Source of the DNA: Candidatus Latescibacterota bacterium
Lineage (GTDB): Bacteria; Latescibacterota; UBA2968; GCA-2709665
Assembly (NCBI GenBank): GCA_965203805.1
Contig: OZ241917.1
Location: forward strand, 2,368,001 to 2,432,000
Direction: 5' to 3'
DNA length: 64,000 bases
Shown: positions 22,566 through 43,600 of the stretch, piece after piece
Position numbering within the stretch: position 1 is the first letter of the stretch
How the letters are laid out: every line of letters begins with the position of its first letter
Notes under the pieces: model-generated
The model's database searches: none
Seen by the model: only the letters and a program-made list of their open reading frames with translations
What the model was told of the DNA's origin: nothing
Program-made: the position numbers and the translations under genes

Positions 22566-22727
22566 TCGGACGCGATCTCACGCCGGAGATCCCCCGGCGT
22601 CAGCACTGGAAGCCCGCGCTTTCCTTTTTGTTTCTGACTCTTTTCGCCATTCCGATTCAATCACTGTTCTAATGAACGATTCTCGCCGGGCTGCCGCCTT
22701 TGATGGCGAGATTGTGTGCCAGTTAAT

Positions 22728-25599: not shown

Positions 25600-25957
25600 T
25601 CGGTTTCTCCATTTCTAGTTTATGAATATAATCATGTCCCCAAAGGATATCGTGTTTTTGGGACTTTTTAAACCCAATGGCGATCAAATGAATCATAGAA
25701 GTCTCTAATTCCAAATAAAAGTATAATCGCGCTTCCGGCAATTTAAACGGCGCACCTCGTTGATCTACCGCGTAGAGTCCGTGACCCTCATTACGTACCT
25801 TTCCAAGCCGTACGATATTTTGAGGTCTATCAGAAATCTGTAAGGTCTCTTGCACGGTCGCTAGATTCTCAAGAAGTGCCTCCAAAGTGGCGCCATGTTT
25901 CTTACCGAATCTCTTCAATTGCCGCTGAAATTTATCCGAATGAAGAAACTCCCACAT
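25583..25957 (-). CDS. Probable RelE/HigB-like toxin
   Basis: 124 aa, basic; ARLYFY...IHLIAIGFKKSQKHDI; toxin-before-XRE gene order. Confidence 0.6.
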   Translation of the reverse strand: MWEFLHSDKFQRQLKRFGKKHGATLEALLENLATVQETLQISDRPQNIVRLGKVRNEGHGLYAVDQRGAPFKLPEARLYFYLELETSMIHLIAIGFKKSQKHDILWGHDYIHKLEMEKPNGRSV

Positions 25958-26350
25958 ACACAGAGACCCGACAATAGTCGAAATGTTCCCTTATATTGGA
26001 GTCGATTATATATGGGCAAATCTCACTTGTCAAGTCCAAATTACGACATTGTTGGACTAATGTTCCGACAATTTAGAATATAACCAGTTTGCCATCTAAA
26101 TACAACATCACGATGTATCCTCTCCAAAGGTCCCCGTCCCGTCTCCGGTTATTCTTGTAACACGCCTCCGCCAGATACAGTTCTATCCACTCATTACTAT
26201 ATCGAATCCAGTCGGAAGCCGGCATCCGCAGGCACGAACAGACCTGCCCGTCCATCATCCGTTTTTCTGACTGACCACTGACACTGATCACCGACCACTG
26301 CTGCTTCACTCCTTGTCCTGATGGAAGATTCCCAGCGTGCCGATCAAGCC

Positions 26351-26527
26351 TCAGTCAGTATCCTGATCGGCGAAACGGCGGTCCATCTCAGCCCAGTGAG
26401 CGAGCTGCTCGGGGGTGGGGACGGGCATACCGGCCTTGCGGTAGTCTTCCGGCGAGTAGGGCGTCCCGTCCGGATGCCAGCACTGGAAAGCGGCGGGCTG
26501 CTGGCGATTTCGGATATCTTTCGGCAT
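26351..26527 (-). CDS. Small protein A, 58 aa, absent from the ORF track: MPKDIRNRQQPAAFQCWHPDGTPYSPEDYRKAGMPVPTPEQLAHWAEMDRRFADQDTD
   Basis: Translated by hand; paralogous to the two upstream small ORFs; ATG 5 nt after the repeat. Confidence 0.75.
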   Translation of the reverse strand: MPKDIRNRQQPAAFQCWHPDGTPYSPEDYRKAGMPVPTPEQLAHWAEMDRRFADQDTD

Positions 26528-26655
26528 AAGCAGTTCTAATCCTTTCTCTGATGGAAGATTCTCGCCGGGAATGACGGCAGAATCCAGCAGCGGGGAGGGA
26601 GATCCTTCCAGGTGACCAAATTCTATGAGGTGGAGCTGATGTATCCGACACGGGA

Positions 26656-26841
26656 TTAACCGAAGTAACGGGCCTTGATCTCCGCGATCGTCCGATCCAT
26701 CCGGTCCCGGTGAGCCCGGTGCTCAGGCGTCGGGACGGGCATCCCCGCCTTGCGATAGTCCGCATCGGAATAGGGGGTTCCATCCGGATGCCAGACTTCA
26801 AAGATCTTCGGACCTTCTCGATTTTGGAAATCCTGTGGCAT
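26656..26841 (-). CDS. Small protein B, 61 aa: MPQDFQNREGPKIFEVWHPDGTPYSDADYRKAGMPVPTPEHRAHRDRMDRTIAEIKARYFG
   Basis: Shares WHPDGTPYS..DYRKAGMPVPTPE with protein A, with synonymous codon differences; ATG 5 nt after the repeat. Confidence 0.75.
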   Translation of the reverse strand: MPQDFQNREGPKIFEVWHPDGTPYSDADYRKAGMPVPTPEHRAHRDRMDRTIAEIKARYFG

Positions 26842-26910
26842 AAGCAGTTTCAATCCTTTCTGTGATGGAAGTTTCTCACCGCGTATTTTCTCGTGGAGCT
26901 TGATTGAGGA

Positions 26911-27084
26911 CTAGCGGTCTTCGCTGGCGCGTTCATGGTCCTGTTCAGCCCACAAGGCCATTTGCTCAGGGATGGGGACGGGGAGGCCGATACGGCGGTA
27001 GTCTTCCGGGGTGGCCGGTGTGCCGTATGGACGCCAGACGCGCCACGGGCCGCCGGTTTGTTTGTTGTGCTTTGGTGTGGTCAT
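26911..27084 (-). CDS. Small protein C, 57 aa: MTTPKHNKQTGGPWRVWRPYGTPATPEDYRRIGLPVPIPEQMALWAEQDHERASEDR
   Basis: W.P.GTP..PEDYR..G.PVP.PEQ.A.WAE.D motif; ATG 4 nt after the repeat. Confidence 0.72.
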   Translation of the reverse strand: MTTPKHNKQTGGPWRVWRPYGTPATPEDYRRIGLPVPIPEQMALWAEQDHERASEDR

Positions 27085-27149
27085 ATCGGTTTCAGTCCTT
27101 GTTTTGATGGAAGATTCTCGCCGGGAATTCACTCGGCATTGCTACGTCT

Positions 27150-27485
27150 TCAGTTGGAAGCCCTGGGTACGGGCGTGGCGACGGGCTTGTCCGTCCGGTA
27201 GTACTGGCTTCGACGTCCTACGATATGGGCCCTGCCCTGTTCGACGGCATCAAGGTCGAAATTGCCCGATCCATGGTCTCGGATAAACGACCGGGCCAGG
27301 ATGCGGCCGCGCGGTGACAATTTCAGGTGCCGGAACAACTCGTCGACCGTCGCGTCGCTGGCAAATTCGCCCCGCATCGTGTTAACGGCTACCGCCTGGA
27401 GCCGGGACAGGTACGCGACTTCGTCCATGTGTTTACGGACGCCGTATTTGCCCTTCCTCGGCTTATCTATGACGAATCTGGGCAT
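27150..27485 (-). CDS. Hypothetical protein D (111 aa) between repeats 4 and 5 of the mini-array
   Basis: GC3-rich ORF, co-oriented with A-C, ending 24 nt before the next repeat; no recognisable family. Confidence 0.5.
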   Translation of the reverse strand: MPRFVIDKPRKGKYGVRKHMDEVAYLSRLQAVAVNTMRGEFASDATVDELFRHLKLSPRGRILARSFIRDHGSGNFDLDAVEQGRAHIVGRRSQYYRTDKPVATPVPRASN

Positions 27486-27723
27486 AGAGCGGACCCCAAT
27501 ATCGGGTTGCCTGTACGGCTGCGCTGCTGGTCTCTCCGGTCACACGGTCCCGGGTGTTTTCGAGGGAACGCTCGCCGCCAGGAAGCGAGCTCTCGTCAAA
27601 CCCCAGCTTATGATTGTTGTTTCAATCGTTGTACTGATGGAAGATTCTCGCCGGGCGTGGCGATACGGGCGGCTTTGGACATCAACCGGCGAAGCGAATG
27701 GGCTGTGAACCCGAGGCCGGTTG

Positions 27724-28326
27724 TCATGCACGGTCCCGGTACTCTCCTTCACAATACCTGCGAATTCTCAACCCAAGCTCGCGCGCGTTTCGCTTGGACC
27801 AGAATCGGAAGTGCTTAACATATAGGAGTTCGCACGGGAGGTCCTTCCCCTGTAGCAACTCGGCAGCGTCCTTGCCGTGGGCAATCACCAGCCTGGGCGC
27901 GATCTGGCGCAAGAGATAGTCGAAGGAAGTCGAGATCTTGCTTCGCTCGTCCAGGTCCGATGCCTGATTAGTCGCTTTCGCGTAGACATTCGTCTCGAGG
28001 CATTTGACGGGACTGGCGCCCGAGACGACCTCCTCGATGATTCTTCGTGTGTTGCTTACTTCATTCCTTCTCTTTCTTCCGGGTTTCAGCGGGCGAGACC
28101 TTCGCTCCTCCTTGTACTTCTCGAACCACGCGCGTTTGTCGAATCCATAGCTGTCCGACCAGAAATCCCAGAAATCAACCGACATGCGGCTCGCGGGATT
28201 GATACCAACGAGGAACACATCGCAATCAAGCGGCGAACCCTCGCACACGAACGGACGCAGATCGGTCGGCCTGCCGATCAGAGATGCCAGGCCAAGGCTG
28301 AACTCGTGCAAGCTACTCGTTTCCAT
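27724..28326 (-). CDS. Uracil-DNA glycosylase-like superfamily protein
   Basis: VFLVGINPA (motif A-like), ETN, PRLVIAHGKDA, VKHF; GAGG RBS. Confidence 0.6.
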   Translation of the reverse strand: METSSLHEFSLGLASLIGRPTDLRPFVCEGSPLDCDVFLVGINPASRMSVDFWDFWSDSYGFDKRAWFEKYKEERRSRPLKPGRKRRNEVSNTRRIIEEVVSGASPVKCLETNVYAKATNQASDLDERSKISTSFDYLLRQIAPRLVIAHGKDAAELLQGKDLPCELLYVKHFRFWSKRNARELGLRIRRYCEGEYRDRA

Positions 28327-28739: not shown

Positions 28740-29318
28740 CTACGTTGCGCTGACGTTCGAATCTGACCCCTGCCGCAGATATTCGTATCCACGTAGATTG
28801 GCCGTTTTTTTTGCAATTTTTTCAATTATCGATATTCTCGTCGACCTGGACGATAAATTAATCCCCAGTGCCTCGCCAATTTGCCTCAGCATTGAAATGT
28901 CGTACTTTTTTCGATCGGCCAAAGTGAGCTCGATATCTGACGACGTCAACCCTTTTAATTCTTCTGCTATAACCCTTGCATCCTCGCGGCTCTGTGCAGA
29001 ATAGGCATTGCGTGCGGTCTTCTTCGTCCCCTTGTTTCGTGATGACAGACCCAGAACTGACGAAAGCACAGGATCTGACTCTGCGACGCGTACACAGTCC
29101 TTGATAGATTCGATGGTCGATGTAACGCCTTCAACGTCTTCCCCTGCAGGAAGTGACCTTAGCCTTATCTGGAAATCTCTTAGGAACTTAATCAAGACCT
29201 CCAATTCTTGGTCAAGTCGATGTTTTGTCTCCTCCGTGGGCAAGGCGTCAACCAACTCGGACAGCCTGCTGAGAAAGTTGTCCAATTTCCTTCCGGTCAA
29301 TCTTACTGAATTGCTCAT
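28740..29318 (-). CDS. Hypothetical helical protein translationally coupled to ParA
   Basis: TAATG overlap at 29318; C-terminal LRQIGEALGI...IIEKI helix-extension-helix-like segment. Confidence 0.7.
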   Translation of the reverse strand: MSNSVRLTGRKLDNFLSRLSELVDALPTEETKHRLDQELEVLIKFLRDFQIRLRSLPAGEDVEGVTSTIESIKDCVRVAESDPVLSSVLGLSSRNKGTKKTARNAYSAQSREDARVIAEELKGLTSSDIELTLADRKKYDISMLRQIGEALGINLSSRSTRISIIEKIAKKTANLRGYEYLRQGSDSNVSAT

Positions 29319-30259
29319 TATTGAAATCTCTCCAGAAGTTCGTCGACGACTCGGGGATACTCCTGCTTGCCCGTCGCCCGCCTGGCGTTTTCAGAGTCAT
29401 GCAACCATATGGGCAGACTGTTTTCGGCAGCTTCAGTGTATCCGATCAATTCAGTCGTGTGGGTTGAAAAGCACTTGTCCCGGCCCAACTGCGACCGAAT
29501 TCCCTCCATTGTATTCGCATGGGCATTAGCGATCATTTCACCCCCGATTCGCACACGAACGAAAAGAACTGCGCCGAACTCAGCTACACGATGACTGTCC
29601 GCAGTTTCACCGGCCAATGCACCCGCATGCGTCATACGTTCGTCGATATCCCGGACTTTGTTTGTTAAAATGCTCAATCCAATTGTAGAAAGATGATCCG
29701 GTATCGCGGTCACAATGTAGTAGTCACTCGCGATAAGCGCGTTCTGCGTCATCAAATACAAATTCGGCGGGCAATCTATCAGAACAAAATCGTAATTGTC
29801 ACGGACTTCGTTGATGGCTTTAACTAGGAATTCCCGGTCTCGCATGGCCTGTTGTGCGTTCTTCCTCAGCATTTCCATACTTGGATATGCTCCTGAGATC
29901 TGCCCTCCGCCAATGTCCTCCCCTATCAGATCAATATCGCACGGGATCAAATCCAATCGTGGGTGACGGCGCCCGTCCCTTAAACGAATTGGAGTCTCCC
30001 ACAGATATCTCTTAACGTCAATGGGTTTCCTGTCCAGAAATCTCTTATACATAGTGGCAATTGTGCCAACTCTGGATTTCCGCCTTTTCCAGTCTTCAAT
30101 GGAAGCACATAGAAACGTAAGGTTTGTCTGTGGATCGATATCGATCAGCAAGACCTTCTTCTCTCTTAGTCCGGCAAGCCAACATCCGACATGGTAGGCT
30201 GATGTCGTCTTTGCGACGCCACCTTTGTAATTGATAAACGCGAAAACCTTTGCTGCCAC
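29318..30259 (-). CDS. ParA/Soj-family ATPase
   Basis: INYKGGVAKTT deviant Walker A, VLLIDIDPQTNLT, YDFVLIDCPPNL. Confidence 0.9.
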   Translation of the reverse strand: MAAKVFAFINYKGGVAKTTSAYHVGCWLAGLREKKVLLIDIDPQTNLTFLCASIEDWKRRKSRVGTIATMYKRFLDRKPIDVKRYLWETPIRLRDGRRHPRLDLIPCDIDLIGEDIGGGQISGAYPSMEMLRKNAQQAMRDREFLVKAINEVRDNYDFVLIDCPPNLYLMTQNALIASDYYIVTAIPDHLSTIGLSILTNKVRDIDERMTHAGALAGETADSHRVAEFGAVLFVRVRIGGEMIANAHANTMEGIRSQLGRDKCFSTHTTELIGYTEAAENSLPIWLHDSENARRATGKQEYPRVVDELLERFQ

Positions 30260-31060
30260 TAATTATGCCCCCAAGCAGACAACCGCATATTGCGATCTTC
30301 AGCTATATTCGGAACAGAAGATCGATGCTACTGGTCGGTTCATCTTGACAGCGTGGCATGCACCCGTGAATGACTGGCAAACCTAAGGCGCACAGCGCTT
30401 TGACTGCGATTAATTACGAGCCAGGTGTCAGCAAGCCGAAAGCGTATCCGTTGGAAATCTCGTTCAATGCACGACACTCCCATACGTTTGAGTCCCGAGG
30501 ATCACTTTTAACGAACTGACCACCTCTAACCTTCAAATATATGGCATTCGATGGGCGGAAGGCAACCTCATTTCCGTTTCTGTCACTTACTCTGAACGGC
30601 AGCTGTTCCTTCAAGTGGCGAATAGTTCCCGCAACCAGACATTTGCTTCAGGGATCCCGCATGCGTCGAACACGAATTCCTGTCCGGGGCTTACCGTGTT
30701 GAGGTATACCCATGGTTTGCGGCGGTCCCAAAGTTTCCTATTGTAGTGGTGGCTTAGGATTGGACAACCGCCCGGCGGATAAAATCACGACGGCAGCCTC
30801 CATCTGCTGCGATTCGCCGATCGCGGCGCCGTCAACGTGAAACGGTCGCCGTCGCCGGAAAAGAGGGCTGCGCAGTTCACCGAGTTGAATTACTTGCGCC
30901 TGAAGACGATCTTCATCGATTCTCCGCCTTTCCAGTTTCATTTCGGTTCTGATGACCCACGGAATCCAGGCGGAAGTCGGCATCCTCCGGCACGCAAATT
31001 CCCGCCCATGCATGATCCGTTTTGCTGACTGGTCACTGACACTGATCACCGACCACTGCC

Positions 31061-34000
31061 GCTGCAATCCTTGTTCTGATGGAAGATTCTCTCTGAGATG
31101 AGCAGATCGAAAAACGGCCCGGTGTGTATCACGGGTTTCAATCCTTGTTCTGATGGAAGATTCTCTCTGAGTGTTCGTCGGGCAACATCGTCCGCCCCAG
31201 ACCTTCCTGTTTCAATCCTTGTTCTGATGGAAGATTCTCTCTGAGTCTCCGTGGACGGGTTGATGTTCTGTCTTTGCACGTGTTGTTTCAATCCTTGTTC
31301 TGATGGAAGATTCTCTCTGAGTCCACGTCGGCATCCAGTTCGATACCGAGATAATGTGGTTTCAATCCTTGTTCTGATGGAAGATTCTCTCTGAGAAGTC
31401 CGCCCCAGATATAACCCCAATATACCCACGTGTTTCAATCCTTGTTCTGATGGAAGATTCTCTCTGAGACGGCGAGCCCAACTATCGCGCCGAAGAAGGT
31501 GACTCCAGTTTCAATCCTTGTTCTGATGGAAGATTCTCTCTGAGCGCTTAGAGCGTCTCTATTGCGTTCTGCGATACCGGTTTCAATCCTTGTTCTGATG
31601 GAAGATTCTCTCTGAGCGCGTAATAAAGCGCTTCACCACCGTCAAAGCCTTCCGGTTTCAATCCTTGTTCTGATGGAAGATTCTCTCTGAGAATCGGGCG
31701 GCCCGTCTTTTACGCGTACAACAACAGTTTCAATCCTTGTTCTGATGGAAGATTCTCTCTGAGACATCACATCTTCAGGATCACCGAGTGTGGCGATCTG
31801 TTTCAATCCTTGTTCTGATGGAAGATTCTCTCTGAGCCAAGCGTTGGCGCGGGCCACGCCGTCGACGGACTCCATGTTTCAATCCTTGTTCTGATGGAAG
31901 ATTCTCTCTGAGCGCAAGGGGTTCCCCGAGCACCAGGCCCTGATTTAGTTTCAATCCTTGTTCTGATGGAAGATTCTCTCTGAGTTCGAATGATACCGAT
32001 GACCTCCCATTCTGAAACCTTGTTTCAATCCTTGTTCTGATGGAAGATTCTCTCTGAGCACTGACCGGCGCGGATGCTGTTATCAGCACGGTGATGTTTC
32101 AATCCTTGTTCTGATGGAAGATTCTCTCTGAGTCCGGACAGCGCCGCGCGGTCCGCCTGCAGCGAGCGGAGTTTCAATCCTTGTTCTGATGGAAGATTCT
32201 CTCTGAGCGATCCCGGCTGAAGGCGTTGCGTGGTTGATTCCCAGGGTTTCAATCCTTGTTCTGATGGAAGATTCTCTCTGAGCGGCGCACGGCCCGCGAA
32301 CAGCAGGCCCTGATCGAGTTTCAATCCTTGTTCTGATGGAAGATTCTCTCTGAGCAGGGGGCGGACGTTTGCATGCTCCGGGAGTATGCCATGTTTCAAT
32401 CCTTGTTCTGATGGAAGATTCTCTCTGAGAGGCAGGGCTCGGGATTTGCACGGACCAACGTTGCAGTTTCAATCCTTGTTCTGATGGAAGATTCTCTCTG
32501 AGTCCAGATCGTATCGAACAGCGGCGAGCCATTCTTTTCGTTTCAATCCTTGTTCTGATGGAAGATTCTCTCTGAGCGGAGGCCGGGAATATCACGGCGC
32601 GGACGCTGGCGAAGTTTCAATCCTTGTTCTGATGGAAGATTCTCTCTGAGACGTCGTGCAGCTCTGTTATCCGACGTCGGAAGCCCTGTTTCAATCCTTG
32701 TTCTGATGGAAGATTCTCTCTGAGAGTGCGCCGTATGCGGTTATGTCAAGTGCAGGTGCCGTTTCAATCCTTGTTCTGATGGAAGATTCTCTCTGAGGTG
32801 AGGAACGGCGGAACAGACCACCCCAGACATAACCCGTTTCAATCCTTGTTCTGATGGAAGATTCTCTCTGAGACCCGGAACAGGAACCGGGTGACAAAGG
32901 TATCGAGGTTTCAATCCTTGTTCTGATGGAAGATTCTCTCTGAGACCCGGAACAGGAACCGGGTGACAAAGGTATCGAGGTTTCAATCCTTGTTCTGATG
33001 GAAGATTCTCTCTGAGATATGACCGCGAACCATATCACGACGTCGGTATTTAGTTTCAATCCTTGTTCTGATGGAAGATTCTCTCTGAGCACAAAGGCGA
33101 AAGCTACGGATGATAGCTTTGAACCTGTTTCAATCCTTGTTCTGATGGAAGATTCTCTCTGAGCGGTGCCGGATGCGCCGGCGAGGCCCGTCGCTTTCGC
33201 CCGGTTTCAATCCTTGTTCTGATGGAAGATTCTCTCTGAGTTCTGTATCCGCCGTCTGACGGATGGCCTGACGTGCTGTTTCAATCCTTGTTCTGATGGA
33301 AGATTCTCTCTGAGCATTCAGCGGTTGGGCCGCGTCATACGCGCCTTCTACGGGTTTCAATCCTTGTTCTGATGGAAGATTCTCTCTGAGGTAGGAAGCT
33401 GCTTTGGTCCCACTGTCCACACGGTCCAGTTTCAATCCTTGTTCTGATGGAAGATTCTCTCTGAGTGTTGAAAGTCTCCCCGTCCCCGAAACCCTGGCTA
33501 TCCGTTTCAATCCTTGTTCTGATGGAAGATTCTCTCTGAGCGCGCTGCAGTTCGGCCTTGTGGAAGTTCGCGGCTGTGTTTCAATCCTTGTTCTGATGGA
33601 AGATTCTCTCTGAGCCTGGTTCCTGCGGGCCCTGTTCTGCCGGGTGAAAAGTGTTTCAATCCTTGTTCTGATGGAAGATTCTCTCTGAGCCGGTCTGGGG
33701 AGTCGATTGAGAGGCTGGTTTGCGAATGTTTCAATCCTTGTTCTGATGGAAGATTCTCTCTGAGCGGGGCGGTTGAGCGTTGTCATCGCCGCTATCGACA
33801 AAATGTTTCAATCCTTGTTCTGATGGAAGATTCTCTCTGAGGAAAAGCACCTGTGGCGCACCGCCCGCATTTTGGCCGAGTTTCAATCCTTGTTCTGATG
33901 GAAGATTCTCTCTGAGTTTTTGCGGCTCCCGCCGAAGGTTGTTGACCAGATCATGTTTCAATCCTTGTTCTGATGGAAGATTCTCTCTGAGTAACAGTGG

Positions 34001-35847
34001 GGGATTCGCTGGCAAGGCCCCAAACGCCTGTTTCAATCCTTGTTCTGATGGAAGATTCTCTCTGAGCTATTCGCATCGCTTCGCGCAAGCGGTGGTTATT
34101 TACGTTTCAATCCTTGTTCTGATGGAAGATTCTCTCTGAGCGTCTCGAGGTGGTCACGGTCGTACTACATCGATGCCGTTTCAATCCTTGTTCTGATGGA
34201 AGATTCTCTCTGAGTGAAGGTCGCGCAGCTTTATGCGTACCGCGAGGGGGTCGTTTCAATCCTTGTTCTGATGGAAGATTCTCTCTGAGAGCTTACGCTG
34301 AAGCGATCCCAGGCAATCACAGCCTCGGTTTCAATCCTTGTTCTGATGGAAGATTCTCTCTGAGGATCATGACGCCGGGAAGCGCATTCGATATCACGAT
34401 GTTTCAATCCTTGTTCTGATGGAAGATTCTCTCTGAGCGGCGCCGTCGTCGACGTCCTCCGCGATGCGCCCACCGTTTCAATCCTTGTTCTGATGGAAGA
34501 TTCTCTCTGAGGCACGGGCGCGAATCAATTAGAGCCTCTCAGGTCGATGTTTCAATCCTTGTTCTGATGGAAGATTCTCTCTGAGTAGTCGAGCACATCC
34601 AGGCAGGAGAGTATGCATGGGACGTTTCAATCCTTGTTCTGATGGAAGATTCTCTCTGAGTCTGGGAGTATGTCATGGAGGGTGCATTGATCCGCGTTTC
34701 AATCCTTGTTCTGATGGAAGATTCTCTCTGAGGGCCTCCAGATGCGCCGGTAACCGCCGGCGGTTCTTGTTTCAATCCTTGTTCTGATGGAAGATTCTCT
34801 CTGAGCGCCGTAGGAGATTTTTGTGAGTCTTCAGGGAGAGAGTTTCAATCCTTGTTCTGATGGAAGATTCTCTCTGAGATCGTGGCGGGTGAAAGTGCAG
34901 CGTGTGCGACGTGTCATGTTTCAATCCTTGTTCTGATGGAAGATTCTCTCTGAGTGAGCTACCCGCCAAAATCGTCAAGTATGCTTCTTTAGTTTCAATC
35001 CTTGTTCTGATGGAAGATTCTCTCTGAGCCTGTCAGGCGTTGTGCGATACGAGCTAACGGTTTACGGGGTTTCAATCCTTGTTCTGATGGAAGATTCTCT
35101 CTGAGCGGGCGCGGTTCGCCCGGATTCTCAAATGCTTAGAGTGTTTCAATCCTTGTTCTGATGGAAGATTCTCTCTGAGTCTCGTCCAGTTCGAGGGCGC
35201 GGACGTGTGCATGTGTTTCAATCCTTGTTCTGATGGAAGATTCTCTCTGAGCATGGGGGGCCTCTGATGCTGAAGAACTTAACGCCTCTGTTTCAATCCT
35301 TGTTCTGATGGAAGATTCTCTCTGAGCTATCACAGACGGAACTGTCACAACTACAGATGATGGGTTTCAATCCTTGTTCTGATGGAAGATTCTCTCTGAG
35401 CTTGAATATAAGCGGCCAACACACGGCCAAAATTGAAACCGTTTCAATCCTTGTTCTGATGGAAGATTCTCTCTGAGGATCTGGCCGACGTCGGCGGTCC
35501 TGGCGTGTTCCGGATGTTTCAATCCTTGTTCTGATGGAAGATTCTCTCTGAGTTCTCGTCCAGTTCGAGGGCCAGGACGTGTGCATGCTGTTTCAATCCT
35601 TGTTCTGATGGAAGATTCTCTCTGAGGGTCGAATGTCATTTCCCCGACTACAGGACTAAGGCGTTTCAATCCTTGTTCTGATGGAAGATTCTCTCTGAGA
35701 GCAATGGCTATTATTGCAGGTTCGGAAGATATAGCGTTTCAATCCTTGTTCTGATGGAAGATTCTCTCTGAGGTACCCTGCTCACTGGCTATTCGCTCAA
35801 TCCGGTTAGCGTTTCAATCCTTGTTCTGATGGAAGATTCTCTCTGAG
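31061..35847 (-). CRISPR. CRISPR array, about 65 repeats and 64 spacers; repeat as transcribed CTCAGAGAGAATCTTCCATCAGAACAAGGATTGAAAC (37 bp)
   Basis: Identical repeats at ~74 bp period (hand count); the ATTGAAAC 3' end, a degenerate terminal repeat at 31061 and an AT-rich leader next to cas4 give minus orientation. Confidence 0.98.
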
Positions 35848-36018: not shown

Positions 36019-36615
36019 TCAGACACAGATATTTCTATAACAACAGTCCCCACATTTGACACGATGAGGTGTTTTTCTGGGCAGACGTCCAGTCTCAATG
36101 ATGTCGAGGATCTCAGCCACAGCAGTCTTTGCTGCGCTTTCTTCGGCCTCGCCAATGGGGACTTCGACCAACCGACTGCCACCGCGCACGTACGCTATGT
36201 AACCACGCGTTACCGATTTTCGATAGACTTCGCGGGCGAGAAGCCCATAGAGAGTAATTTGGATTCGATGAGTCTTGAAAGCATTCTCTCGATAGGGCGT
36301 ATACTTGTAATCGAGCGGTGCAAACGTCCCATCGTGCAATGTCAGGACTTCATCGACAACCCCACGGACACTTAGCGCGGGTGACGCCAAATACACGTTG
36401 AGATCTCTATCTACGGCACCGATTTTCTTCCGCAGGTAGGATCGGTTTTCGCGTTCCCTGCGTTTGTGGACTTCCCGCCCCTTGAGCACCTTGAAGCGCC
36501 GGTCCTCAAACTGCGGGATATTAAGCACGTTCATGAAATACGTGAAACGGGGACAATAGACGTGCTCGATCACCTCCGAAGGCGTGATCATGATTGTCGT
36601 TTCGGTGTCGCTCAC
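36019..36615 (-). CDS. cas4: CRISPR-associated Cas4 nuclease
   Basis: YCPR, GVVDE, PLDYK, QITLY, C-terminal CxxCCYxxxC. Confidence 0.93.
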   Translation of the reverse strand: MSDTETTIMITPSEVIEHVYCPRFTYFMNVLNIPQFEDRRFKVLKGREVHKRRERENRSYLRKKIGAVDRDLNVYLASPALSVRGVVDEVLTLHDGTFAPLDYKYTPYRENAFKTHRIQITLYGLLAREVYRKSVTRGYIAYVRGGSRLVEVPIGEAEESAAKTAVAEILDIIETGRLPRKTPHRVKCGDCCYRNICV

Positions 36616-36917
36616 AGGAATAGACTCTTTACTTCGTCGGTGACCAGTTTCTGGTCAAACGCCTGGCCTTGTAGTACGACTTTGCGGAAGTCCATGGCGC
36701 ACATGGGGAAAATATACACGCTGTCGGTTTCCTCATCTATGTGTTCCTCAATACGCATCGAGAGTTCATCCAGCCGGTTGTGTTTGACCGTCCCGAGAAA
36801 GACGGACTTTTGTACTCGGTAGAGGCCGGCTTCTTGACAGGCTTTGCCCACCTTCCGCCGACCCTTGTCGGCTGAGATATCGTATAGGACCCAGGTAAGG
36901 GATTCGTCAGATTTCAT
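36612..36917 (-). CDS. cas2: CRISPR-associated Cas2
   Basis: VLYDIS, RVQKSVFLG, DSVYIFP. Confidence 0.95.
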   Translation of the reverse strand: MKSDESLTWVLYDISADKGRRKVGKACQEAGLYRVQKSVFLGTVKHNRLDELSMRIEEHIDEETDSVYIFPMCAMDFRKVVLQGQAFDQKLVTDEVKSLFL

Positions 36918-37912
36918 GTTCTCATCTCTTTGGTGTTCGGATCGTTGGCAAGCAGTTTATTAGCGATGCGGTGCAGATCGAATTGTATGCTGTCGCGCCG
37001 AGTGATGTTTCGGCCCCGGTAGCGGGTGGCTTCGTCGAGATACGTCGTGAACGCTTCGATGAGGACGGCCTTGCCCTGTTTGTTCAGTGTGAGTCCATTT
37101 TGGAGGTTGTCGAACAGGTCTTTTTTGATCTTGCGCGCAGAGAAAAGTCCAAGCACCGTCTCGTCCGCCCAAATCCGGTATTGCTCGATAAGGTCAAATA
37201 CAAGGGATGGTTTGTTGTAGTGATCGGTATGAATGAACCCAATGTATGGATCGAGTCCGGCGAGCAAACAGGCTCGTTCGACCGTACCATACAGGATGCC
37301 ATAGGCATAATTGAGCAGGCAGTTGAATGGGTCTTTGGCCGGATTGCGGCTCCGGCCTTCAAACCGGTAGTGGATTGGTAAGAGTAATGATACAGCCGAC
37401 CAGTAGGTTCGTCCGGCACGCCCCTCCAGGCCGAGAAGGCTCTGGCGTGCGGAATCAATTTTTCCTGTGACGTCCTGCGTTTGATCTTTGAGCGTCTTTA
37501 GACTACCGATCGCTTCGGTCAGCTGCGCTGAAAGGCGCGTCCGACGATCGCGCATGCGCGCCAGCAGCGCAATCTGGTTGTCAAATTTGCGCTCCACCCA
37601 GCCGAGGGCAAGCCGCATGCCAAGGTCGGTTTCCGCGGCCGCAAATTGCATTCGTCGTATCGCGGTTGTTGAACCTGGTCGGCCGTGCCACACCCGACCG
37701 AACGGGTCGCCGTACTTGTCCAGAAAGAGGATGTCGATATTCTTCTCAACAGCAAGTTGCACCGCATCGGACGAGAACGCCGCGCCCGTTGAAATCAGAA
37801 TGGAGCGTACCTTGCGAGCGGAGATTTCGGTCGATTGTCCATCAACTTTGATGTTGAACAATTCCCCGCGCCGGCTCAGATACGCACCGAATGTGTTGAG
37901 TACGAGTTGCAT
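36914..37912 (-). CDS. cas1: CRISPR-associated Cas1
   Basis: LGLEGRAGRTYW, DPFNCLLNYAYGILY, GLDPYIGFIH, SLVFDLIE; ATG 37912 overlaps the cas3 stop. Confidence 0.96.
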   Translation of the reverse strand: MQLVLNTFGAYLSRRGELFNIKVDGQSTEISARKVRSILISTGAAFSSDAVQLAVEKNIDILFLDKYGDPFGRVWHGRPGSTTAIRRMQFAAAETDLGMRLALGWVERKFDNQIALLARMRDRRTRLSAQLTEAIGSLKTLKDQTQDVTGKIDSARQSLLGLEGRAGRTYWSAVSLLLPIHYRFEGRSRNPAKDPFNCLLNYAYGILYGTVERACLLAGLDPYIGFIHTDHYNKPSLVFDLIEQYRIWADETVLGLFSARKIKKDLFDNLQNGLTLNKQGKAVLIEAFTTYLDEATRYRGRNITRRDSIQFDLHRIANKLLANDPNTKEMRT

Positions 37913-40218
37913 TAGAATAGCCTTAAAGCAACGTCTGCAGCGAAGCGTCCGCCTAAGTGTGAGTCGTATTCCATTTCGCAGAACGAAAACAAGCCGTCTC
38001 CTTCTCTCAAGTAGTGTTTTTTTATATACCACAAAGGCATTTTTAACTCGTAAAGCCGTCGATCCTTGGGATCCGCCAAACCTATTACATCGTCCTTGAA
38101 TTCGTGAGGAATGACGCTTTGTTGTTCGTAATTGGAGACCCGAGTACTCCGTCGCTCATCGTGACCACGTACGGGATCTAAAATACCCGAAAAGCGCCTC
38201 TGATCTTGCATTACGGTTTGCTGGGCAAGGATGAAATCCTCGTGTGTATTAATCTCAGTATGGGCATAAATGCTCTCTACCAAATCAAGCAGATCCTGTT
38301 CGGTTAGCCGCCTGTTGTCCATATCTGCAAATGCACGGAAACTACGGTTTAAGAGAGCCTGTTCCGCGCTCTGCTCAATATGCATATTATCGAAATATAT
38401 CCTTTCCGAGCCAGGTCCTGGACGAAAGATGACGACCTCACCATCACGCCTCCTCTTTCGGTTGACTCGTCCTGCCCGTTGCGCTAGCGCGTCGGGGGGC
38501 GCGCATTCGGTAAAAAGCACATCAAAATCAATATCTAGAGCGACTTCTACCACTTGTGTCGCAATCAACAGCGTAGGCTCTTTATTTAAAATAAACTCCT
38601 CTTTGTCTTGTCTGTCTTTGAGAATAAACTTGGAGTGATAACAGACAGGCTGAAGCTCTTCAAGAGCTTCGGCTAATTCTTGACATCGTCTCACGGTATT
38701 TACCACTACCAAGACTCGTTTTCCGACAATGACCTTATCCCGGATCAGGTCCAATCTATCGAGAAGATCGCCGTCAACAACCCGGAACAAACTTCTGGAT
38801 TCTTGCAGCAACTCGTGATCTCTGACGACCTCCGTATGTGCCGATTCCTCTAGCGCAGTCATTAGACTGCATTCCAAGAAACGAGGCAAAGTCGCGCTCA
38901 TAACCATGAATCGTGCTCCGGCGGCTCCCAACTGTTCAATAGCTTTGAATATTAGGCCCGCCGTATAGGGATCGTATGCATGAATTTCGTCCAGAATAAT
39001 TGCGGAGTCACAGGCGGCAAACGCCTTAAGAGGCCACAGTCCTGCATGAAACAAAGTCGTCAAAAGTTGATCAACGGTCCCTACTGTCACGGGTGGGATA
39101 AAATGGCGGTCAAAGAGCGCACGCGAACGCACGTCCTCTCTGCCGTCGCCGACTGCATCATCCATCTGAGCTTGCTCTCGCCGGTTTACTAAATCCGCCA
39201 TTGAGTGCGTCAGACCGACTGGGTGACCATAAGAAGAAAAAAACTGACGCATCCGTTCATACAAACTGTTCGCCGTTACCATGGTAGGAAGGAGGTAGAG
39301 GATTTTTCCAACGTGACCTTGTTCCACCTGCCCCAATGCCCACAGCAAGGCTGCTTCCGTCTTGCCGATGCCCGTAGGCGCGACTGCGACTACATGGCCG
39401 TCTATACTTCCACAAGTACGTTGGAAATCACGAAACTCCGAAAAAACCCAGCCTTCGCGTTTGCCTTTTTCTATCAGATAGGAATAGACTTTTTTAGGGC
39501 CTACATCTACAGTAAATCGGTAATCGAAGCTGTGCGCCGAAGCGTGCCAATCGGCATTTATCAATAGTCCCTTCATCAGGATAAACAACGCTCGGACAGC
39601 GTCGATGTCTGTCACCCTTCTTTTCAAGCTACTAACGAAGGACGGTCGCTTTTTCGCCAGCTCGCTACACTTCTCGTAATCCAATGTCGGAGGGCAAGCA
39701 CCGAAATCGTCAAAGATCTTCTCGACGACACGTTGCCCTTCTTCAATGCCCCCTTCAACCCATGTAAGAGCACCAGGGTTTTTGCCCTCGCGCTCGAAAC
39801 GAGTCAATTCTCCATCAACCGGTTTGTGATGGCCGAGAACTACCATCGCTTCCGTTACTCCCGTGCAGATAGCTTCGGTCAATTGGCCATGAGTCTGTCG
39901 CAAATTGCGGGCCGCTAGAAAAACAAAGGCAGTAGATGCGTATTCATGGCGAAAATTGGCTTTGATGGCTCTCTGTCTATCAACCTCAGAGGAGGCGTAC
40001 ATAATGCGTTGGAAATTCGCCGATAGCTTGCCCATATCGTGAAAAGCTACACACAAAAGGCTGCTTAGCAGAAAGCGATCTCGGTCTATGCTGTGGCGAT
40101 CACATAGTCGATTGATCGCACCGCTGTGTCTATCGATCAATTGCCTCCAAGCCAAATAGACGCTCCAAACGTGCTGCTCGTACGTTTCATCGGGCCTGCA
40201 CTTAGCGAGAAAGATCAT
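37912..40218 (-). CDS. cas3: Cas3 HD nuclease-helicase
   Basis: HD motif FHDMGK, GHH, ADWHAS, APTGIGKT, DEIH, MSAT, QRAGRVNR. Confidence 0.96.
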   Translation of the reverse strand: MIFLAKCRPDETYEQHVWSVYLAWRQLIDRHSGAINRLCDRHSIDRDRFLLSSLLCVAFHDMGKLSANFQRIMYASSEVDRQRAIKANFRHEYASTAFVFLAARNLRQTHGQLTEAICTGVTEAMVVLGHHKPVDGELTRFEREGKNPGALTWVEGGIEEGQRVVEKIFDDFGACPPTLDYEKCSELAKKRPSFVSSLKRRVTDIDAVRALFILMKGLLINADWHASAHSFDYRFTVDVGPKKVYSYLIEKGKREGWVFSEFRDFQRTCGSIDGHVVAVAPTGIGKTEAALLWALGQVEQGHVGKILYLLPTMVTANSLYERMRQFFSSYGHPVGLTHSMADLVNRREQAQMDDAVGDGREDVRSRALFDRHFIPPVTVGTVDQLLTTLFHAGLWPLKAFAACDSAIILDEIHAYDPYTAGLIFKAIEQLGAAGARFMVMSATLPRFLECSLMTALEESAHTEVVRDHELLQESRSLFRVVDGDLLDRLDLIRDKVIVGKRVLVVVNTVRRCQELAEALEELQPVCYHSKFILKDRQDKEEFILNKEPTLLIATQVVEVALDIDFDVLFTECAPPDALAQRAGRVNRKRRRDGEVVIFRPGPGSERIYFDNMHIEQSAEQALLNRSFRAFADMDNRRLTEQDLLDLVESIYAHTEINTHEDFILAQQTVMQDQRRFSGILDPVRGHDERRSTRVSNYEQQSVIPHEFKDDVIGLADPKDRRLYELKMPLWYIKKHYLREGDGLFSFCEMEYDSHLGGRFAADVALRLF

Positions 40219-40946
40219 CGAGGTACCAGTGTAATTCGGTCGTAGCCTGGGCCTAGGATTTTGGTACTTAGACTAAAGCCCTTGATTGGGTCTTTAACTT
40301 GTATCGGATGGCCGATATAGGTAAAAAACTCCCGTCCGACAATCGTACGTCGCTCGCCTTCAAAACTGAAGCGTACAGGTAGATTGAACACTTGGGGCGC
40401 ACGTATTGACTCAGTGAGAGGTAGCTCTAAGACGGATTTATCTGCTTCGTATGCTCCTGTAATATCCTGAGGCACTGCACAAAAATGGACCGATTCTATT
40501 GGTTCCCAATCTGCCTCCGATAATCCGACGGAGCACAAGACGAGCAGGCTATCGCTGTGACCAGCGGTAAGCGCATATACCGGGTCGTTGAACGCTTGGG
40601 CAATTCGCTGAGCAGTGGATTCTTCTTCAGCACAGTACCCTAGACCAATAGATAGATCGACAACATATTCCCTTAGTATAACATCTGAGATCACTTCCCC
40701 GGACTTCACTTTGCGGTACTTCCAGAGGTCCTTAAAGGTGCCGCGATCTCTACCCCCGACGCCAACGAGGATGTTATACTCCTCAACGAACTGTTGACTC
40801 TCCTCCATACCATACCCGAGTGCCGCCCCTAGCAATCCGATACAGCTTGTATAGGACGGAAGGGGTAGCGTTTTATGGAACGTATGTGTTTCAGGTAGGC
40901 GAAAAGAGGCGGTTTCCGCGAATGCCTGGATCAATACTAGATGCAT
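40215..40946 (-). CDS. cas5: Cas5 (type I-B)
   Basis: ASFRLP...TLPLPSYTSCIGLLGAALG, PVYALTAG. Confidence 0.92.
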   Translation of the reverse strand: MHLVLIQAFAETASFRLPETHTFHKTLPLPSYTSCIGLLGAALGYGMEESQQFVEEYNILVGVGGRDRGTFKDLWKYRKVKSGEVISDVILREYVVDLSIGLGYCAEEESTAQRIAQAFNDPVYALTAGHSDSLLVLCSVGLSEADWEPIESVHFCAVPQDITGAYEADKSVLELPLTESIRAPQVFNLPVRFSFEGERRTIVGREFFTYIGHPIQVKDPIKGFSLSTKILGPGYDRITLVPR

Positions 40947-40949
40947 GCC

Positions 40950-41873: not shown

Positions 41874-42172
41874 TGCTTCTCTCCTTTCTTGTCGTTTGAG
41901 GCAGTACCAGCGTTGAAAGAATTGAGAGCCGCCAACATGCAGAAACCGCGAAACTCTTCGAAGTTAGTTTGATTTAGTTGACCTTCGTACGTGGCTGGGG
42001 GTACGGCAATTTTCCACTTAAACTGAAGTCGGTTGAGTTCGCTGAGAAAATCTGGAACCGTTCGACACTTTCTCAGTGCGAACAGACTTCCCTTTTTGCC
42101 GCCTTCCTTGGCGATGACCGAGCCAATGCGTCTCCCAAGAGTTACGGCTGCTTCACGCGCGTGTGTTTCCAT
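41870..42172 (-). CDS. cas11: Cas11 small subunit from internal translation start in cas8 (100 aa)
   Basis: In-frame ATG preceded by AAAGGAGGAAGT; helical METHAREAAVTLGRRIG... domain. Confidence 0.7.
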   Translation of the reverse strand: METHAREAAVTLGRRIGSVIAKEGGKKGSLFALRKCRTVPDFLSELNRLQFKWKIAVPPATYEGQLNQTNFEEFRGFCMLAALNSFNAGTASNDKKGEKQ

Positions 42173-43597: not shown

Positions 43598-43600
43598 CGC

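What the first reader, a model, noticed from the sequence alone, without database searches (positions are those of the whole stretch)
26303..27655. CRISPR-repeat-punctuated gene array: repeats alternate with small protein-coding cassettes instead of spacers
Seen: five diverged copies of the neighbouring type I-B repeat lie in the same orientation as the main array, about 3.4 kb past its trailer. They are separated by 193, 277, 205 and 493 bp, and each interval holds one complete co-oriented ORF. Three ORFs are paralogues (57-61 aa, W[HR]P[DY]GTP....DYR[KR].G[ML]PVP.PE) starting 4-5 nt after the repeat 3' end. A and B keep the protein motif through synonymous changes, which suggests selection on protein. 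Three repeats share a private end (CCCGGCGAG versus CTCAGAGAG), so repeat+ORF appears to have amplified as a unit. Known: Cas6 cuts such repeats 8 nt from the 3' end; CreTA/CreR and Racr elements use degenerate repeats but with short RNA guides. Inference: a polycistronic mRNA cut by Cas6 into single-gene units, tying expression of an unknown small-protein family to the CRISPR machinery (addiction, anti-anti-CRISPR sensor or accessory effector). I know of no described system with this architecture.
Basis: partly seen in the sequence, partly recalled or inferred. Interest (0 to 1): 0.92.

Follow-up and report, generated by a model that had tools for sequence, protein, structure and literature searches.

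The report
Protein genes sitting as CRISPR spacers
Downstream of a type I-B CRISPR array, copies of the CRISPR repeat are each followed within a few bases by the start of a small conserved protein gene, and the same pairing recurs in a dozen related genomes, suggesting that a CRISPR repeat has been reused as the control region of ordinary genes.

Summary
On the minus strand, a type I-B cas operon and a 65-repeat array are followed 3.4 kb later by five diverged, co-oriented repeats. Three paralogous genes of 57-61 aa start 4-5 nt after a repeat end. A sixth repeat carries a truncated fourth copy.

The family has no Pfam, PHROG or PADLOC match and no structural match. It occurs in 12 of 14 other genomes of the genus. 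By my count, about 28 of 35 gene copies start directly after a CRISPR repeat.

The genes are under purifying selection (median pN/pS 0.40). The 29-nt repeat core differs far less between copies (0.21) than synonymous sites do (0.73). Related strains gain and lose cassettes by repeat-to-repeat recombination.

The others carry I-C or I-MYXAN systems, or no Cas1, yet keep intact repeats and genes. No crRNA-like target was found, and no RNA data exist.

Best reading (confidence 0.45): the repeat has become the selected 5' leader of these genes. Where Cas6b is present, as here, it would cut 12-13 nt before the AUG. The protein's function is unknown. An anti-defence origin is possible, because the one outgroup homologue lies in a prophage.

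The parts
36019..44275 (-). Type I-B cas operon: cas6b 43601-44275, cas8b-like 41870-43597, cas7 40950-41873, cas5 40215-40946, cas3 37912-40218, cas1 36914-38032, cas4 36019-36615
   Evidence: Pfam hits: Cas6b_N and Cas6b_C, DevR, Cas5d, Cas3 HD and helicase, Cas1, Cas4. The cas8b call rests on position and a weak CXXC hit.
31061..35847 (-). Main CRISPR array: 65 repeats of 37 nt. On the minus strand the repeat reads CTCAGAGAG...GGATTGAAAC. The terminal repeat at 31061-31097 is degenerate.
   Evidence: The direction is inferred from the ATTGAAAC 3' end and from co-orientation with cas.
30910..31060 (-). About 150 nt of trailer after the main array's terminal repeat; one of two copies
   Evidence: about 85% identical to 26150-26302; the tblastn cross-hit.
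29318..30259 (-). ParA-like ATPase gene, inside the block between the two trailer copies
   Evidence: AAA_31, CbiA; phrog_164. About 80% identical orthologues lie in the same island in G049, G052 and G055.
28740..29318 (-). Unknown 192-aa gene (X192), always next to the ParA-like gene
   Evidence: 71-73% identical in G049, G052 and G055. No family found.
27724..28326 (-). Gene of an unnamed 200-aa family (here called UDG1) that weakly resembles uracil-DNA glycosylases; ends 68 nt before R1
   Evidence: PF03167 at E 7.7e-4, below Pfam's cut-off; 223 homologues, all unnamed. It is a cassette between repeats in G050, G053 and G056.
27619..27655 (-). Repeat R1 (CCCGGCGAG...CGATTGAAAC)
27150..27485 (-). 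ORF D, 111 aa, starting 133 nt after R1. Not a family member. A variable cassette.
   Evidence: Three homologues at 85-90%. Missing in strain X4 through an R2/R1 joint, and replaced in X5.
27089..27125 (-). Repeat R2
26911..27084 (-). ORF C, 57 aa, a WHPDGTP-family member; ATG 4 nt after R2
26847..26883 (-). Repeat R3
26656..26841 (-). ORF B, 61 aa, a family member; ATG 5 nt after R3
26533..26569 (-). Repeat R4
26351..26527 (-). ORF A, 58 aa, a family member; ATG 5 nt after R4
26303..26339 (-). Repeat R5, a degenerate closing repeat
26150..26302 (-). Second copy of the roughly 150-nt array trailer, following R5
22654..22690 (-). Repeat R6, an outlying sixth copy
22600..22650 (-). Truncated fourth family copy (16 codons, then TGA where the conserved W stands); ATG 3 nt after R6. 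It abuts a truncated PemK-like gene on the other strand.

Best explanation
A genus-restricted family of proteins of about 58 aa (conserved core W-H-P-D-G-T-P ... D-Y-R ... P-V-P-T-x-E-Q-L-A-x-W) has its genes in the 'spacer' position of type I-B-like CRISPR repeats. These lie on the trailer side of a CRISPR-cas island and run in the same direction as the array.

The repeat has been taken over as the genes' 5' leader. The start codon sits 4-5 nt after the repeat's 3' end, and the 29-nt repeat core is kept by selection. The repeats also act as homology sites through which cassettes are duplicated, lost and swapped.

In genomes with Cas6b, including this one, the repeat is necessarily also a Cas6b site. 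Cutting 8 nt from the repeat end would split the UDG1-D-C-B-A transcript into single-gene mRNAs. Each would begin with the crRNA 5' handle plus 4-5 nt before the AUG, and would have lost the only Shine-Dalgarno-like motif (AAGGA). Translation of the small proteins would then depend on Cas6b, and possibly on Cascade loading.

Shown: the anatomy, the conservation, the selection on the protein and on the repeat, and the cassette turnover.

Inferred: co-transcription, Cas6b cleavage, and any effect on translation (its direction is unknown).

Unknown: what the protein does.
For: 1. Coupling. 10 of 11 homologous loci have the repeat ending 2-5 nt before the ATG. The 39 HMM hits reduce to about 35 gene copies after my manual merging of duplicates and frameshift halves. 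Of these, about 26 follow an I-B-like repeat within 8 nt, 2 follow the terminal repeat of an I-C-type array, and 7 have no repeat within 150 nt.

2. Spacing. Among 19 intact members the linker is 4 nt in 11, 5 nt in 7 and 2 nt in 1, although there are 13 different linker sequences.

3. Selection. Median pN/pS is 0.40. In the 139 pairs with saturated synonymous sites (mean pS 0.727, pN 0.323), the 29-nt repeat core differs by 0.207 and the 5' 8 nt by 0.435. Conservation covers the whole core, not just AAGGA.

4. Orientation. All solitary or terminal I-B-like repeats lie on one strand in each of 14 regions. Of the 73 such repeats, 24 are followed within 8 nt by a family ORF.

5. Real arrays end in the gene. 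In G057 the terminal repeat of an 80-repeat I-B-like array is followed by TGCGT and then the ATG. In G054 the terminal I-C repeat is followed by ACCGC and then the ATG. In G057 one copy sits between an I-C-like and an I-B-like array.

6. Ribosome-binding site. Neighbouring genes have GGAG/GAGG 5-10 nt before the start. A, B and C have only AAGGA, 12 nt upstream and inside the repeat.

7. The repeat is unstructured, as I-B repeats are (PMC5965381, passages read). Cas6b leaves an 8-nt 5' handle (PMC5965381, passages read).

8. Cassette turnover at repeats in related strains: joints 27103>27634 and 26470>27059, and a replacement between 27114 and 27710.

9. The protein folds with fair confidence (pLDDT 78).
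Against: Only 2 of the 12 other genomes with the family have Cas6b, and 0 of 22 match PF01881. G052 and G053 (single contigs, 97% complete) and G045 lack Cas1 but keep intact copies. Repeat decay is the same with and without Cas6b. Cas6b therefore cannot be what maintains the repeat in most genomes.

The family is confined to one genus plus single hits in a sister genus and in one Binatia genome. The copies share descent, so the coupling may trace to one ancestral event. The pair statistics are not independent.

The I-C junction in G054 could be a hybrid repeat made by recombination in the shared GGATTGAAAC, rather than an independent origin.

Six copies within the genus work without an adjacent repeat. 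Some of these have a normal Shine-Dalgarno motif 7-9 nt upstream.

Gene conversion among repeats could mimic selection. However, the 5' ends track orthology rather than genome.

There is no transcript evidence of any kind.
Confidence: 0.45

Rival explanations
1. Anti-defence reading. The small proteins are anti-CRISPR-like or other anti-defence proteins of phage origin. The flanking solitary repeats act as RNA decoys (Racr-like) that soak up Cas6 or Cas7. The block is a domesticated or integrated mobile element next to the array.
For: The proteins are small (57-61 aa) and net acidic, with an acidic tail (read directly from the sequences). They have no known family.

The only homologue with a context outside the family f1 lies in a prophage head module of a Binatia genome. 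It runs in the opposite direction, between the head-morphogenesis and scaffolding genes.

A published acr-racr locus has a solitary repeat 11 nt after an acr gene, and Racr hosts may carry the same CRISPR subtype, another one or none (PMC10651486, passages read). Here several ORFs end 1 nt before, or inside, the next repeat.

The block between the two trailer copies carries a ParA-like gene.
Against: The cassettes sit at the same chromosomal place, between conserved flanks, in about a dozen species.

No homologue was found in IMG/VR viral contigs, in 50,697 phage records or in 72,556 plasmids.

Of 319 spacers from 9 arrays of this genus, none matches the cassettes.

The invariant feature is the repeat on the 5' side. 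The 3' repeat is often missing, with gaps of 1.8-10 kb in L002, L008, L009 and L010.
Confidence: 0.2
2. Recombination-scar reading. The repeats are relics of old arrays. They persist because they mediate homologous exchange of cassettes in a defence island. The tight repeat-ATG junction is inherited from one ancestral fusion and has no function of its own.
For: Strain-level joints fall exactly between repeats. In G055, G057 and G058, conserved flanks stop at a repeat and variable DNA begins there. The cas subtype has been swapped between conserved flanks. The terminal repeat plus trailer is duplicated around a 4.6-kb block. The taxonomic range is narrow. Of 73 solitary repeats, 41 have no ORF starting next to them.
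Against: The repeat core is far better kept than synonymous sites in pairs that are saturated (0.21 against 0.73), and better than the repeats' own 5' 8 nt (0.44). A neutral relic would have decayed.

A, B and C lack any other ribosome-binding motif.

Other genes also start 0-1 nt after a repeat: a PEMT/ICMT-like gene in G052 and G054, and a DUF6361 gene in G053.
Confidence: 0.2
3. CreTA/CrePA-like addiction or anti-anti-CRISPR module. The small protein is a toxin held off by Cascade guided by a crRNA-like RNA made from the degenerate repeat.
For: There are degenerate ectopic repeats next to a type I system. Protein toxins repressed in this way are described (10.1101/2024.01.05.574328, abstract and outline read; 10.1101/2024.12.27.630466, abstract and section 5 read). 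The surrounding region is rich in toxin-antitoxin genes.
Against: There is no pseudo-spacer of 30-40 nt closed by a second repeat. The 14 nt after each of R1-R6 have no second site in the window at up to 2 mismatches, apart from one weak hit for R2 with 19 of 36 identities. Genes are intact in genomes without Cas1 or with other subtypes. The proteins have no hydrophobic stretch (read directly from the sequences).
Confidence: 0.08

Closest known systems
Ectopic CRISPR repeats making crRNA-like regulators (CreA of CreTA/CrePA, CreR, the crlRNAs of 'CRISIS'; surveyed in 10.1101/2023.03.03.530964)
   Same: Degenerate, co-oriented copies of the local type I repeat family lie outside the array, in or beside a cas locus, with a role other than immunity memory.
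   Different: Those elements are short non-coding guides: a repeat, a pseudo-spacer of about 30-40 nt, and usually a second repeat. They pair with a promoter next to a PAM. Here the 'spacer' is a whole protein gene of 170-190 nt whose ATG is 4-5 nt from the repeat, and no target site was found. The published survey kept only repeats that do not overlap ORFs and counted as mini-arrays only spacings of 15-60 bp (passages read). This layout would therefore not have been scored as a mini-array.
RNA anti-CRISPRs (Racr) and acr-racr loci (PMC10651486)
   Same: Solitary repeat units sit beside small protein genes. One described case has the repeat 11 nt after the gene, and the two are thought to be transcribed together.
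   Different: Racrs are on phages and plasmids, downstream of their own promoter. Here the elements are chromosomal, syntenic across species, arrayed, and tightly coupled on the 5' side of the gene.
Engineered Cas6/Csy4 sites in mRNAs (PMC4604432 and PMC13478208; search listing and abstract start only)
   Same: A Cas6 recognition site placed in front of a coding sequence makes mRNA stability or translation depend on the nuclease. This is what the inferred mechanism would amount to.
   Different: Those are man-made and use hairpin repeats. No natural case with protein genes was found in my searches.
Type I toxin-antitoxin genes next to type I-B arrays in Clostridioides difficile (PMC5961336; search listing and abstract start only)
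   Same: Small protein genes are physically linked to I-B CRISPR arrays.
   Different: From recall, those are hydrophobic toxins with antisense RNA antitoxins, and they are not fused to repeats. The proteins here are hydrophilic.
Integron gene-cassette arrays
   Same: A one-directional row of small, promoter-less, swappable cassettes is separated by a recurring site, in a region rich in toxin-antitoxin genes.
   Different: The recurring site is a CRISPR repeat, not an attC palindrome; it is unstructured. No integron integrase was seen among the genes I scanned, but I did not search for one specifically.

Membership tests
Canonical CRISPR array | Near-identical repeats separated by unique spacers of roughly constant length (about 30-40 nt) | tested here: not met
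   The intervals are 193-493 nt and hold genes, and the repeats carry 2-8 differences. The neighbouring main array meets the feature.
crRNA-like regulator (CreA/CreR/crlRNA mini-array) | A pseudo-spacer of about 30-40 nt after the repeat, usually closed by a second repeat | tested here: not met
   The next repeat is 193-493 nt away.
crRNA-like regulator (CreA/CreR/crlRNA mini-array) | Partial match of the pseudo-spacer 5' part to a nearby promoter next to a PAM | tested here: not met
   The 14-nt seeds after R1-R6, allowing up to 2 mismatches, gave no credible second site in the 64-kb window. The rest of the genome was not scanned for this.
RNA anti-CRISPR (Racr) / acr-racr locus | Solitary repeat carried by a virus or plasmid | tested here: inconclusive
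   The position is chromosomal and syntenic in about 12 species. There were no hits in viral contigs, phage records or plasmids. However, a ParA-like gene and duplicated trailers flank the block, and one outgroup homologue is in a prophage.
RNA anti-CRISPR (Racr) / acr-racr locus | Inhibits interference by binding Cas6 or Cas7 | not testable with these tools
   Needs phage or plasmid targeting assays.
Cas6b substrate (type I-B repeat) | Sequence of the repeat family of a Cas6b-bearing locus, ending in the 8-nt handle ATTGAAAC | tested here: met
   R1 and R3 end in ATTGAAAC. R2 ends in CTGAAAC, R4 in ATTAGAAC and R5 in GTGAAGC. Cas6b is encoded 16 kb upstream.
Cas6b substrate (type I-B repeat) | Cleavage by Cas6b 8 nt from the 3' end | not testable with these tools
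   No RNA run is on record. An in vitro assay is needed.
Integron cassette array | attC sites (imperfect palindromes) and an IntI integrase | tested here: not met
   The repeat folds worse than 192 of 200 shuffles. No integrase was among the neighbours scanned, though integrase was not searched for genome-wide.
Type I toxin-antitoxin at CRISPR arrays | Hydrophobic membrane-peptide toxin with an antisense RNA | tested here: not met
   The sequences of A, B and C have no hydrophobic stretch. The model is a short hairpin plus two helices. Antisense RNA was not testable.

The most novel reading that the evidence does not exclude
CRISPR arrays can carry protein-coding 'spacers'. The mRNA of each small gene is born as a crRNA look-alike: an 8-nt handle with the AUG at spacer positions 5-8. 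Ribosomes and Cascade subunits therefore compete for the same 5' end.

The small protein would then be made only when free Cas proteins are scarce or blocked. That would be a cis-acting, RNA-level sensor of CRISPR status, with the repeats doubling as exchange sites for a cassette platform in a defence island.
Probability: 0.15. Interest if true: 0.92.

Novelty: new variant of a known kind. Interest (0 to 1): 0.76.

Why it matters
Ectopic CRISPR repeats are known so far as sources of small regulatory or decoy RNAs. Here a repeat is fused, at a fixed distance of a few bases, to the start of protein genes. The pairing is held by selection across a dozen species and multiplied into arrays whose 'spacers' are genes.

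If Cas6 or Cascade acts on these leaders, this would be a natural counterpart of the engineered Cas6-site switches of synthetic biology. It would also be a new way in which CRISPR machinery and other genes are wired together.

If they do not act, it shows that a CRISPR repeat can be recruited as an ordinary translation leader and recombination site. That bears on how arrays decay and how defence islands shuffle their content.

Either way it defines an unnamed protein family with a clear experimental handle.

Tried and rejected
Function by homology. Pfam, PADLOC and PHROGs gave nothing for A, C, D, UDG1, UDG2, X192, p224 or p244, except weak UDG hits and the ParA hit. The ESM Atlas gave no usable hit. 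Foldseek against the PDB gave no match below E=1. The UDG1 profile against PDB sequences gave nothing below E=0.3. Rfam at gathering threshold gave 0 matches in the window.

Binding. Complex prediction on the UDG1 alignment and the family alignment gave 'no answer' (score 0.27, mark 0.32). It is reported here only and counts neither way.

Expression. No RNA holder was listed among 16 runs, so transcription, ends and processing were not testable. Parts of the stretch without cover in X4 and X5 are not used as evidence.

Promoter inside the repeat. No sigma-70-like site falls in R1-R5. A -35-like TTGAAA in the handle has no -10 partner (my reading of the sequence).

Terminators. None lies on the minus strand within 26000-28400.

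RNA structure. The repeats, repeat-plus-start regions and both trailer copies fold no better than shuffles.

crRNA-like targeting was rejected. Spacers of 9 arrays do not target the cassettes.

'Gemmatimonadota' loci as evidence of transfer between phyla: rejected. L005 and L010 lie in genomes whose matches have the same contig numbers and coordinates as G048 and G047 of the window's own genus.

Supplementary files of the papers were not opened. The supplementary locus lists of 10.1101/2023.03.03.530964 and PMC10651486 might hold similar loci.

The claim that the layout is not in print rests only on searches of the held library.

Full report
ANATOMY

The window carries, on its minus strand, a type I-B cas operon. 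It comprises cas6b, a cas8b-like gene, cas7, cas5, cas3, cas1 and cas4 at 36019-44275. The operon is followed by a 65-repeat array at 31061-35847.

Read on the minus strand, the 37-nt repeat ends in GGATTGAAAC. This fits the 8-nt handle that Cas6b leaves on crRNAs (PMC5965381, passages read).

After the degenerate terminal repeat comes a trailer of about 150 nt. Next come a ParA-like gene, an unknown 192-aa gene (X192) and a 200-aa gene I call UDG1 because it weakly resembles uracil-DNA glycosylases. The element of the finding follows: R1 - ORF D - R2 - ORF C - R3 - ORF B - R4 - ORF A - R5.

- A sixth repeat, R6 at 22654-22690, is followed 3 nt later by a truncated fourth copy of the small gene.
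- The roughly 150 nt after R5 are about 85% identical to the roughly 150 nt after the main array's terminal repeat. A duplicated 'terminal repeat plus trailer' therefore brackets a block of about 4.6 kb.

All 71 repeat-like sequences of the 5.87-Mb genome lie in this locus on one strand.

ASSEMBLY AND STRAINS

One contig of run X1, which may be the source of this DNA, spans the region unchanged. A second sample covers it at 99% or more.

Two runs hold related strains at 90-95% identity.
- In one, a contig joins 27103 to 27634. These are matching positions of R2 and R1, so cassette D is absent.
- In the other, a contig joins 26470 to 27059, giving a hybrid of genes A and C. Between 27114 and 27710 it holds 1636 other letters in place of D.

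Cassette content thus changes by recombination between repeats and between paralogues.

THE PROTEIN FAMILY

A, B and C are 47-60% identical to A. Of 40 aligned codons of A and B, 14 differ only synonymously.

The 90%-cluster database held 16 homologues of 56-95 aa. A profile search of 1.84 billion representatives found 49 proteins at E of 0.001 or better. About 30 of these are small proteins of 44-117 aa.

Nothing is known about the family:
- no Pfam, PADLOC or PHROG hit;
- no Atlas hit;
- a fairly confident model (pLDDT 78, a short hairpin plus two helices) with no PDB match.

DISTRIBUTION

In the phylum sample, 14 of 168 genomes have the family. These are 12 of the 14 other genomes of the window's genus, one of two in a sister genus, and the window's own genome.

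Two loci labelled Gemmatimonadota by their submitters have the same contig numbers and coordinates as genomes of this genus. I therefore do not count them as another phylum.

Outside the genus and its sister genus, one good homologue lies in a Binatia genome; in its class, 2 of 301 genomes have a hit. It sits in a prophage head module, running in the opposite direction between the head-morphogenesis and scaffolding genes. No homologue turned up in viral contigs, phage records or plasmids.

THE COUPLING IS GENERAL

In 10 of 11 loci fetched from other genomes, a type I-B-like repeat ends 2-5 nt before the homologue's ATG. The exception is the prophage copy.

An HMM scan of all DNA held gave 39 distinct hits. 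I merged four pairs by hand: one locus seen twice and three frameshifted genes seen as two halves. That leaves about 35 gene copies:
- about 26 follow an I-B-like repeat within 8 nt;
- 2 follow the terminal repeat of an I-C-type array;
- 7 have no repeat within 150 nt.

Of those 7, one is the prophage copy, four belong to one subfamily, and two have a repeat about 130 nt upstream.

Among 19 intact members the linker is 4 nt in 11, 5 nt in 7 and 2 nt in 1, while its sequence differs (13 variants).

In G048 the units are packed as repeat - 4 nt - gene - stop - 1 nt - repeat, with a period of 219 or 246 nt. In several copies the stop codon is the TGA inside the next repeat's ATTGAAAC.

Three cases show the gene as the last 'spacer' of a true array:
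- In G057, the terminal repeat of an 80-repeat I-B-like array is followed by 5 nt and then the ATG.
- In G054, the degenerate terminal repeat of a type I-C array is followed by 5 nt and then the ATG.
- In G057, another copy sits between an I-C-like array and the I-B-like array, its stop codon abutting the first I-B-like repeat.

Across 14 genome regions there are 73 solitary or terminal I-B-like repeats, all on one strand within each region. Of these, 24 are followed within 8 nt by a family ORF, 8 by another ORF and 41 by none. Two of the 'other' genes recur or are large. One is a PEMT/ICMT-like gene starting 0 nt after the repeat in G052 and G054. The other is a DUF6361 gene starting 1 nt after it in G053.

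SELECTION

Over 171 pairs of the 19 intact members, median pN/pS is 0.40, with synonymous sites saturated. In the 139 pairs with pS of 0.6-1.0 (mean pS 0.727, pN 0.323), the 29-nt repeat core differs by only 0.207, and the first 8 nt of the repeat by 0.435.

Conservation of 0.9 or more covers CTTCCATCA, AAGGA and TGAAAC alike. The whole core is constrained, not only a ribosome-binding-like piece.

The pairs share ancestry and are not independent, and gene conversion among repeats is a possible confounder. However, the variable 5' ends follow orthology between genomes rather than being homogenised within a genome. The end CCCGGCGAG, which looked private to this mini-array, recurs before orthologous copies in G050, G057 and G058, and as CTCGGCGAG in G056.

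THE KEY COMPLICATION

The island is syntenic across the genus: p224/p244/UDG2, then the cas operon, then the array, then ParA/X192/UDG1 and the repeat-gene units. The cas module, however, differs:
- type I-B with Cas6b in G000, G047 and G049;
- type I-C in G054;
- a divergent I-C-like set in G057, with the same array repeat in G055 and G058;
- type I-MYXAN in G056, with the same array repeat in G050.

G052, G053 and G045 have no Cas1 at all.

Cas6b is found in 4 of 22 genomes of the family f1, by protein search and by Pfam alike. The general Cas6 model is found in 0 of 22.

Yet the small genes in all these genomes keep I-B-like repeats rather than the local array's repeat. Those repeats are as well preserved without Cas6b (mean 3.4 mismatches, 20 rows, one locus counted twice) as with it (3.6, 5 rows).

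Cas6b therefore cannot be what keeps the repeat in most genomes. A toxin that is lethal without Cas is also unlikely.

WHAT THE REPEAT MAY DO

Neighbouring genes have GGAG/GAGG motifs 5-10 nt before the start. A, B and C have only the repeat's AAGGA, 12 nt upstream. Family copies without an adjacent repeat have ordinary motifs 7-9 nt upstream.

The repeat is less structured than 192 of 200 shuffles. No promoter-like or terminator-like site lies in the mini-array on the minus strand. No second site matching the first 14 nt after any repeat was found.

The simplest account is that an unstructured CRISPR repeat has been recruited as the 5' leader of these genes and is kept for that reason. In a Cas6b host such as this one, the same sequence would be bound and cut 12-13 nt before the AUG. 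That would separate the cistrons, remove AAGGA and leave a crRNA-type handle on the mRNA.

Whether that raises or lowers translation, and whether Cascade subunits load on such ends, is inference only. Engineered Cas6-site switches show that such control is feasible (PMC4604432, PMC13478208; abstracts only).

COMPARISON WITH WHAT IS KNOWN

The nearest described things are:
- crRNA-like regulators from degenerate repeats: CreTA, CrePA, CreR and CRISIS (10.1101/2023.03.03.530964, passages; 10.1101/2024.01.05.574328, abstract and outline; 10.1101/2024.12.27.630466, abstract and section 5);
- phage RNA anti-CRISPRs beside acr genes (PMC10651486, passages).

Both are short non-coding RNAs. Neither has protein genes in the spacer position with the start codon fused to the repeat.

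The published repeat survey excluded repeats overlapping ORFs and defined mini-arrays by spacings of 15-60 bp. Four full-text searches found no description of this layout.

I file it as a new variant of the known kind 'ectopic CRISPR repeats with a non-memory role'. It is not a member of any of the named families; the membership rows give the features that were tested and not met.

VERDICT

- The Cas6-processing model is plausible for this genome. It is untested, and it cannot be the general reason for the repeat's conservation.
- The protein's function is unknown. A phage anti-defence origin is a live alternative.
- Interest is high because the coupling is precise, selected, multiplied and unreported. 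It is tempered by the narrow taxonomic range and the lack of any RNA or protein data.

Noticed in passing
window 36019-47200 and loci L043-L061: The same chromosomal island, between conserved flanks (p224/p244/UDG2-like upstream, ParA/X192/UDG1-like downstream), holds type I-B, type I-C, an I-C-like variant or type I-MYXAN cas modules in different species of the genus. In G052 and G053 it holds none. It looks like a hot spot where CRISPR-cas cassettes are swapped.
   Followed up: partly
window 30910-31097 and 26150-26339: The terminal repeat plus about 150 nt of trailer occurs twice at about 85% identity. The two copies bracket a 4.6-kb block (ParA-like gene, X192, UDG1, D, C, B, A). A similar trailer start follows a repeat in L002. 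The trailer does not fold better than shuffles.
   Followed up: partly
G057 region (L046/L047), positions about 11455-19458 of the joined stretch: There is an 80-repeat I-B-like array with uniform repeats in a genome where no Cas6b was found (5 contigs, 95% complete). It lies directly beside an I-C-like array and cas set, with a family gene between the two arrays.
   Followed up: partly
L011 9120-13451 (Binatia genome G170): The only well-scoring homologue outside the window's family f1 sits in a prophage head module (portal, head morphogenesis, scaffolding). It is on the opposite strand and has no CRISPR repeat.
   Followed up: yes
window 27724-28326 and 44781-45338: There are two distant paralogue-like genes with weak, sub-threshold resemblance to the uracil-DNA glycosylase superfamily. 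The first belongs to a widespread unnamed family (223 hits, including Pseudomonas and Microlunatus records) and occurs as a cassette between repeats in G050, G053 and G056.
   Followed up: partly
window 22130-25957: Toxin-antitoxin-like genes cluster next to the cassettes: a MazE-like gene at 23670-23987 with a PemK-like gene at 23801-24304; a truncated PemK-like gene at 22380-22565 abutting R6; and an HTH gene at 24961-25599 overlapping an unknown 124-aa gene at 25583-25957. The last pair lies behind a perfect TTGACA-17-TATAAT promoter at 26033-26005.
   Followed up: partly
L009 6203-6724; G054 region; L007 13543-14751: Other genes also begin 0-1 nt after an I-B-like repeat: a PEMT/ICMT-like methyltransferase in G052 (truncated in G054), and a DUF6361 gene in G053.
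   Followed up: partly
window about 31916-31947 and G049 region about 26553-26584: One spacer of the window's array and one of the G049 array are 87.5% identical over 32 nt. None of the 319 spacers from 9 arrays matched the G000 genome outside its own array, or the cassettes.
   Followed up: no
G000:C1:2900548-2901411 (outside the window): A second Cas1 match lies in a 661-aa open frame about 500 kb away. Similar long Cas1 frames occur in G050 and G060. It was not examined.
   Followed up: no
G055, G057 and G058 regions, around the identical 37-nt solitary repeat: The same solitary I-B-like repeat marks the point where a flank that is about 97% identical ends and unrelated DNA, including I-C-like repeats, begins in three species.
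   Followed up: partly
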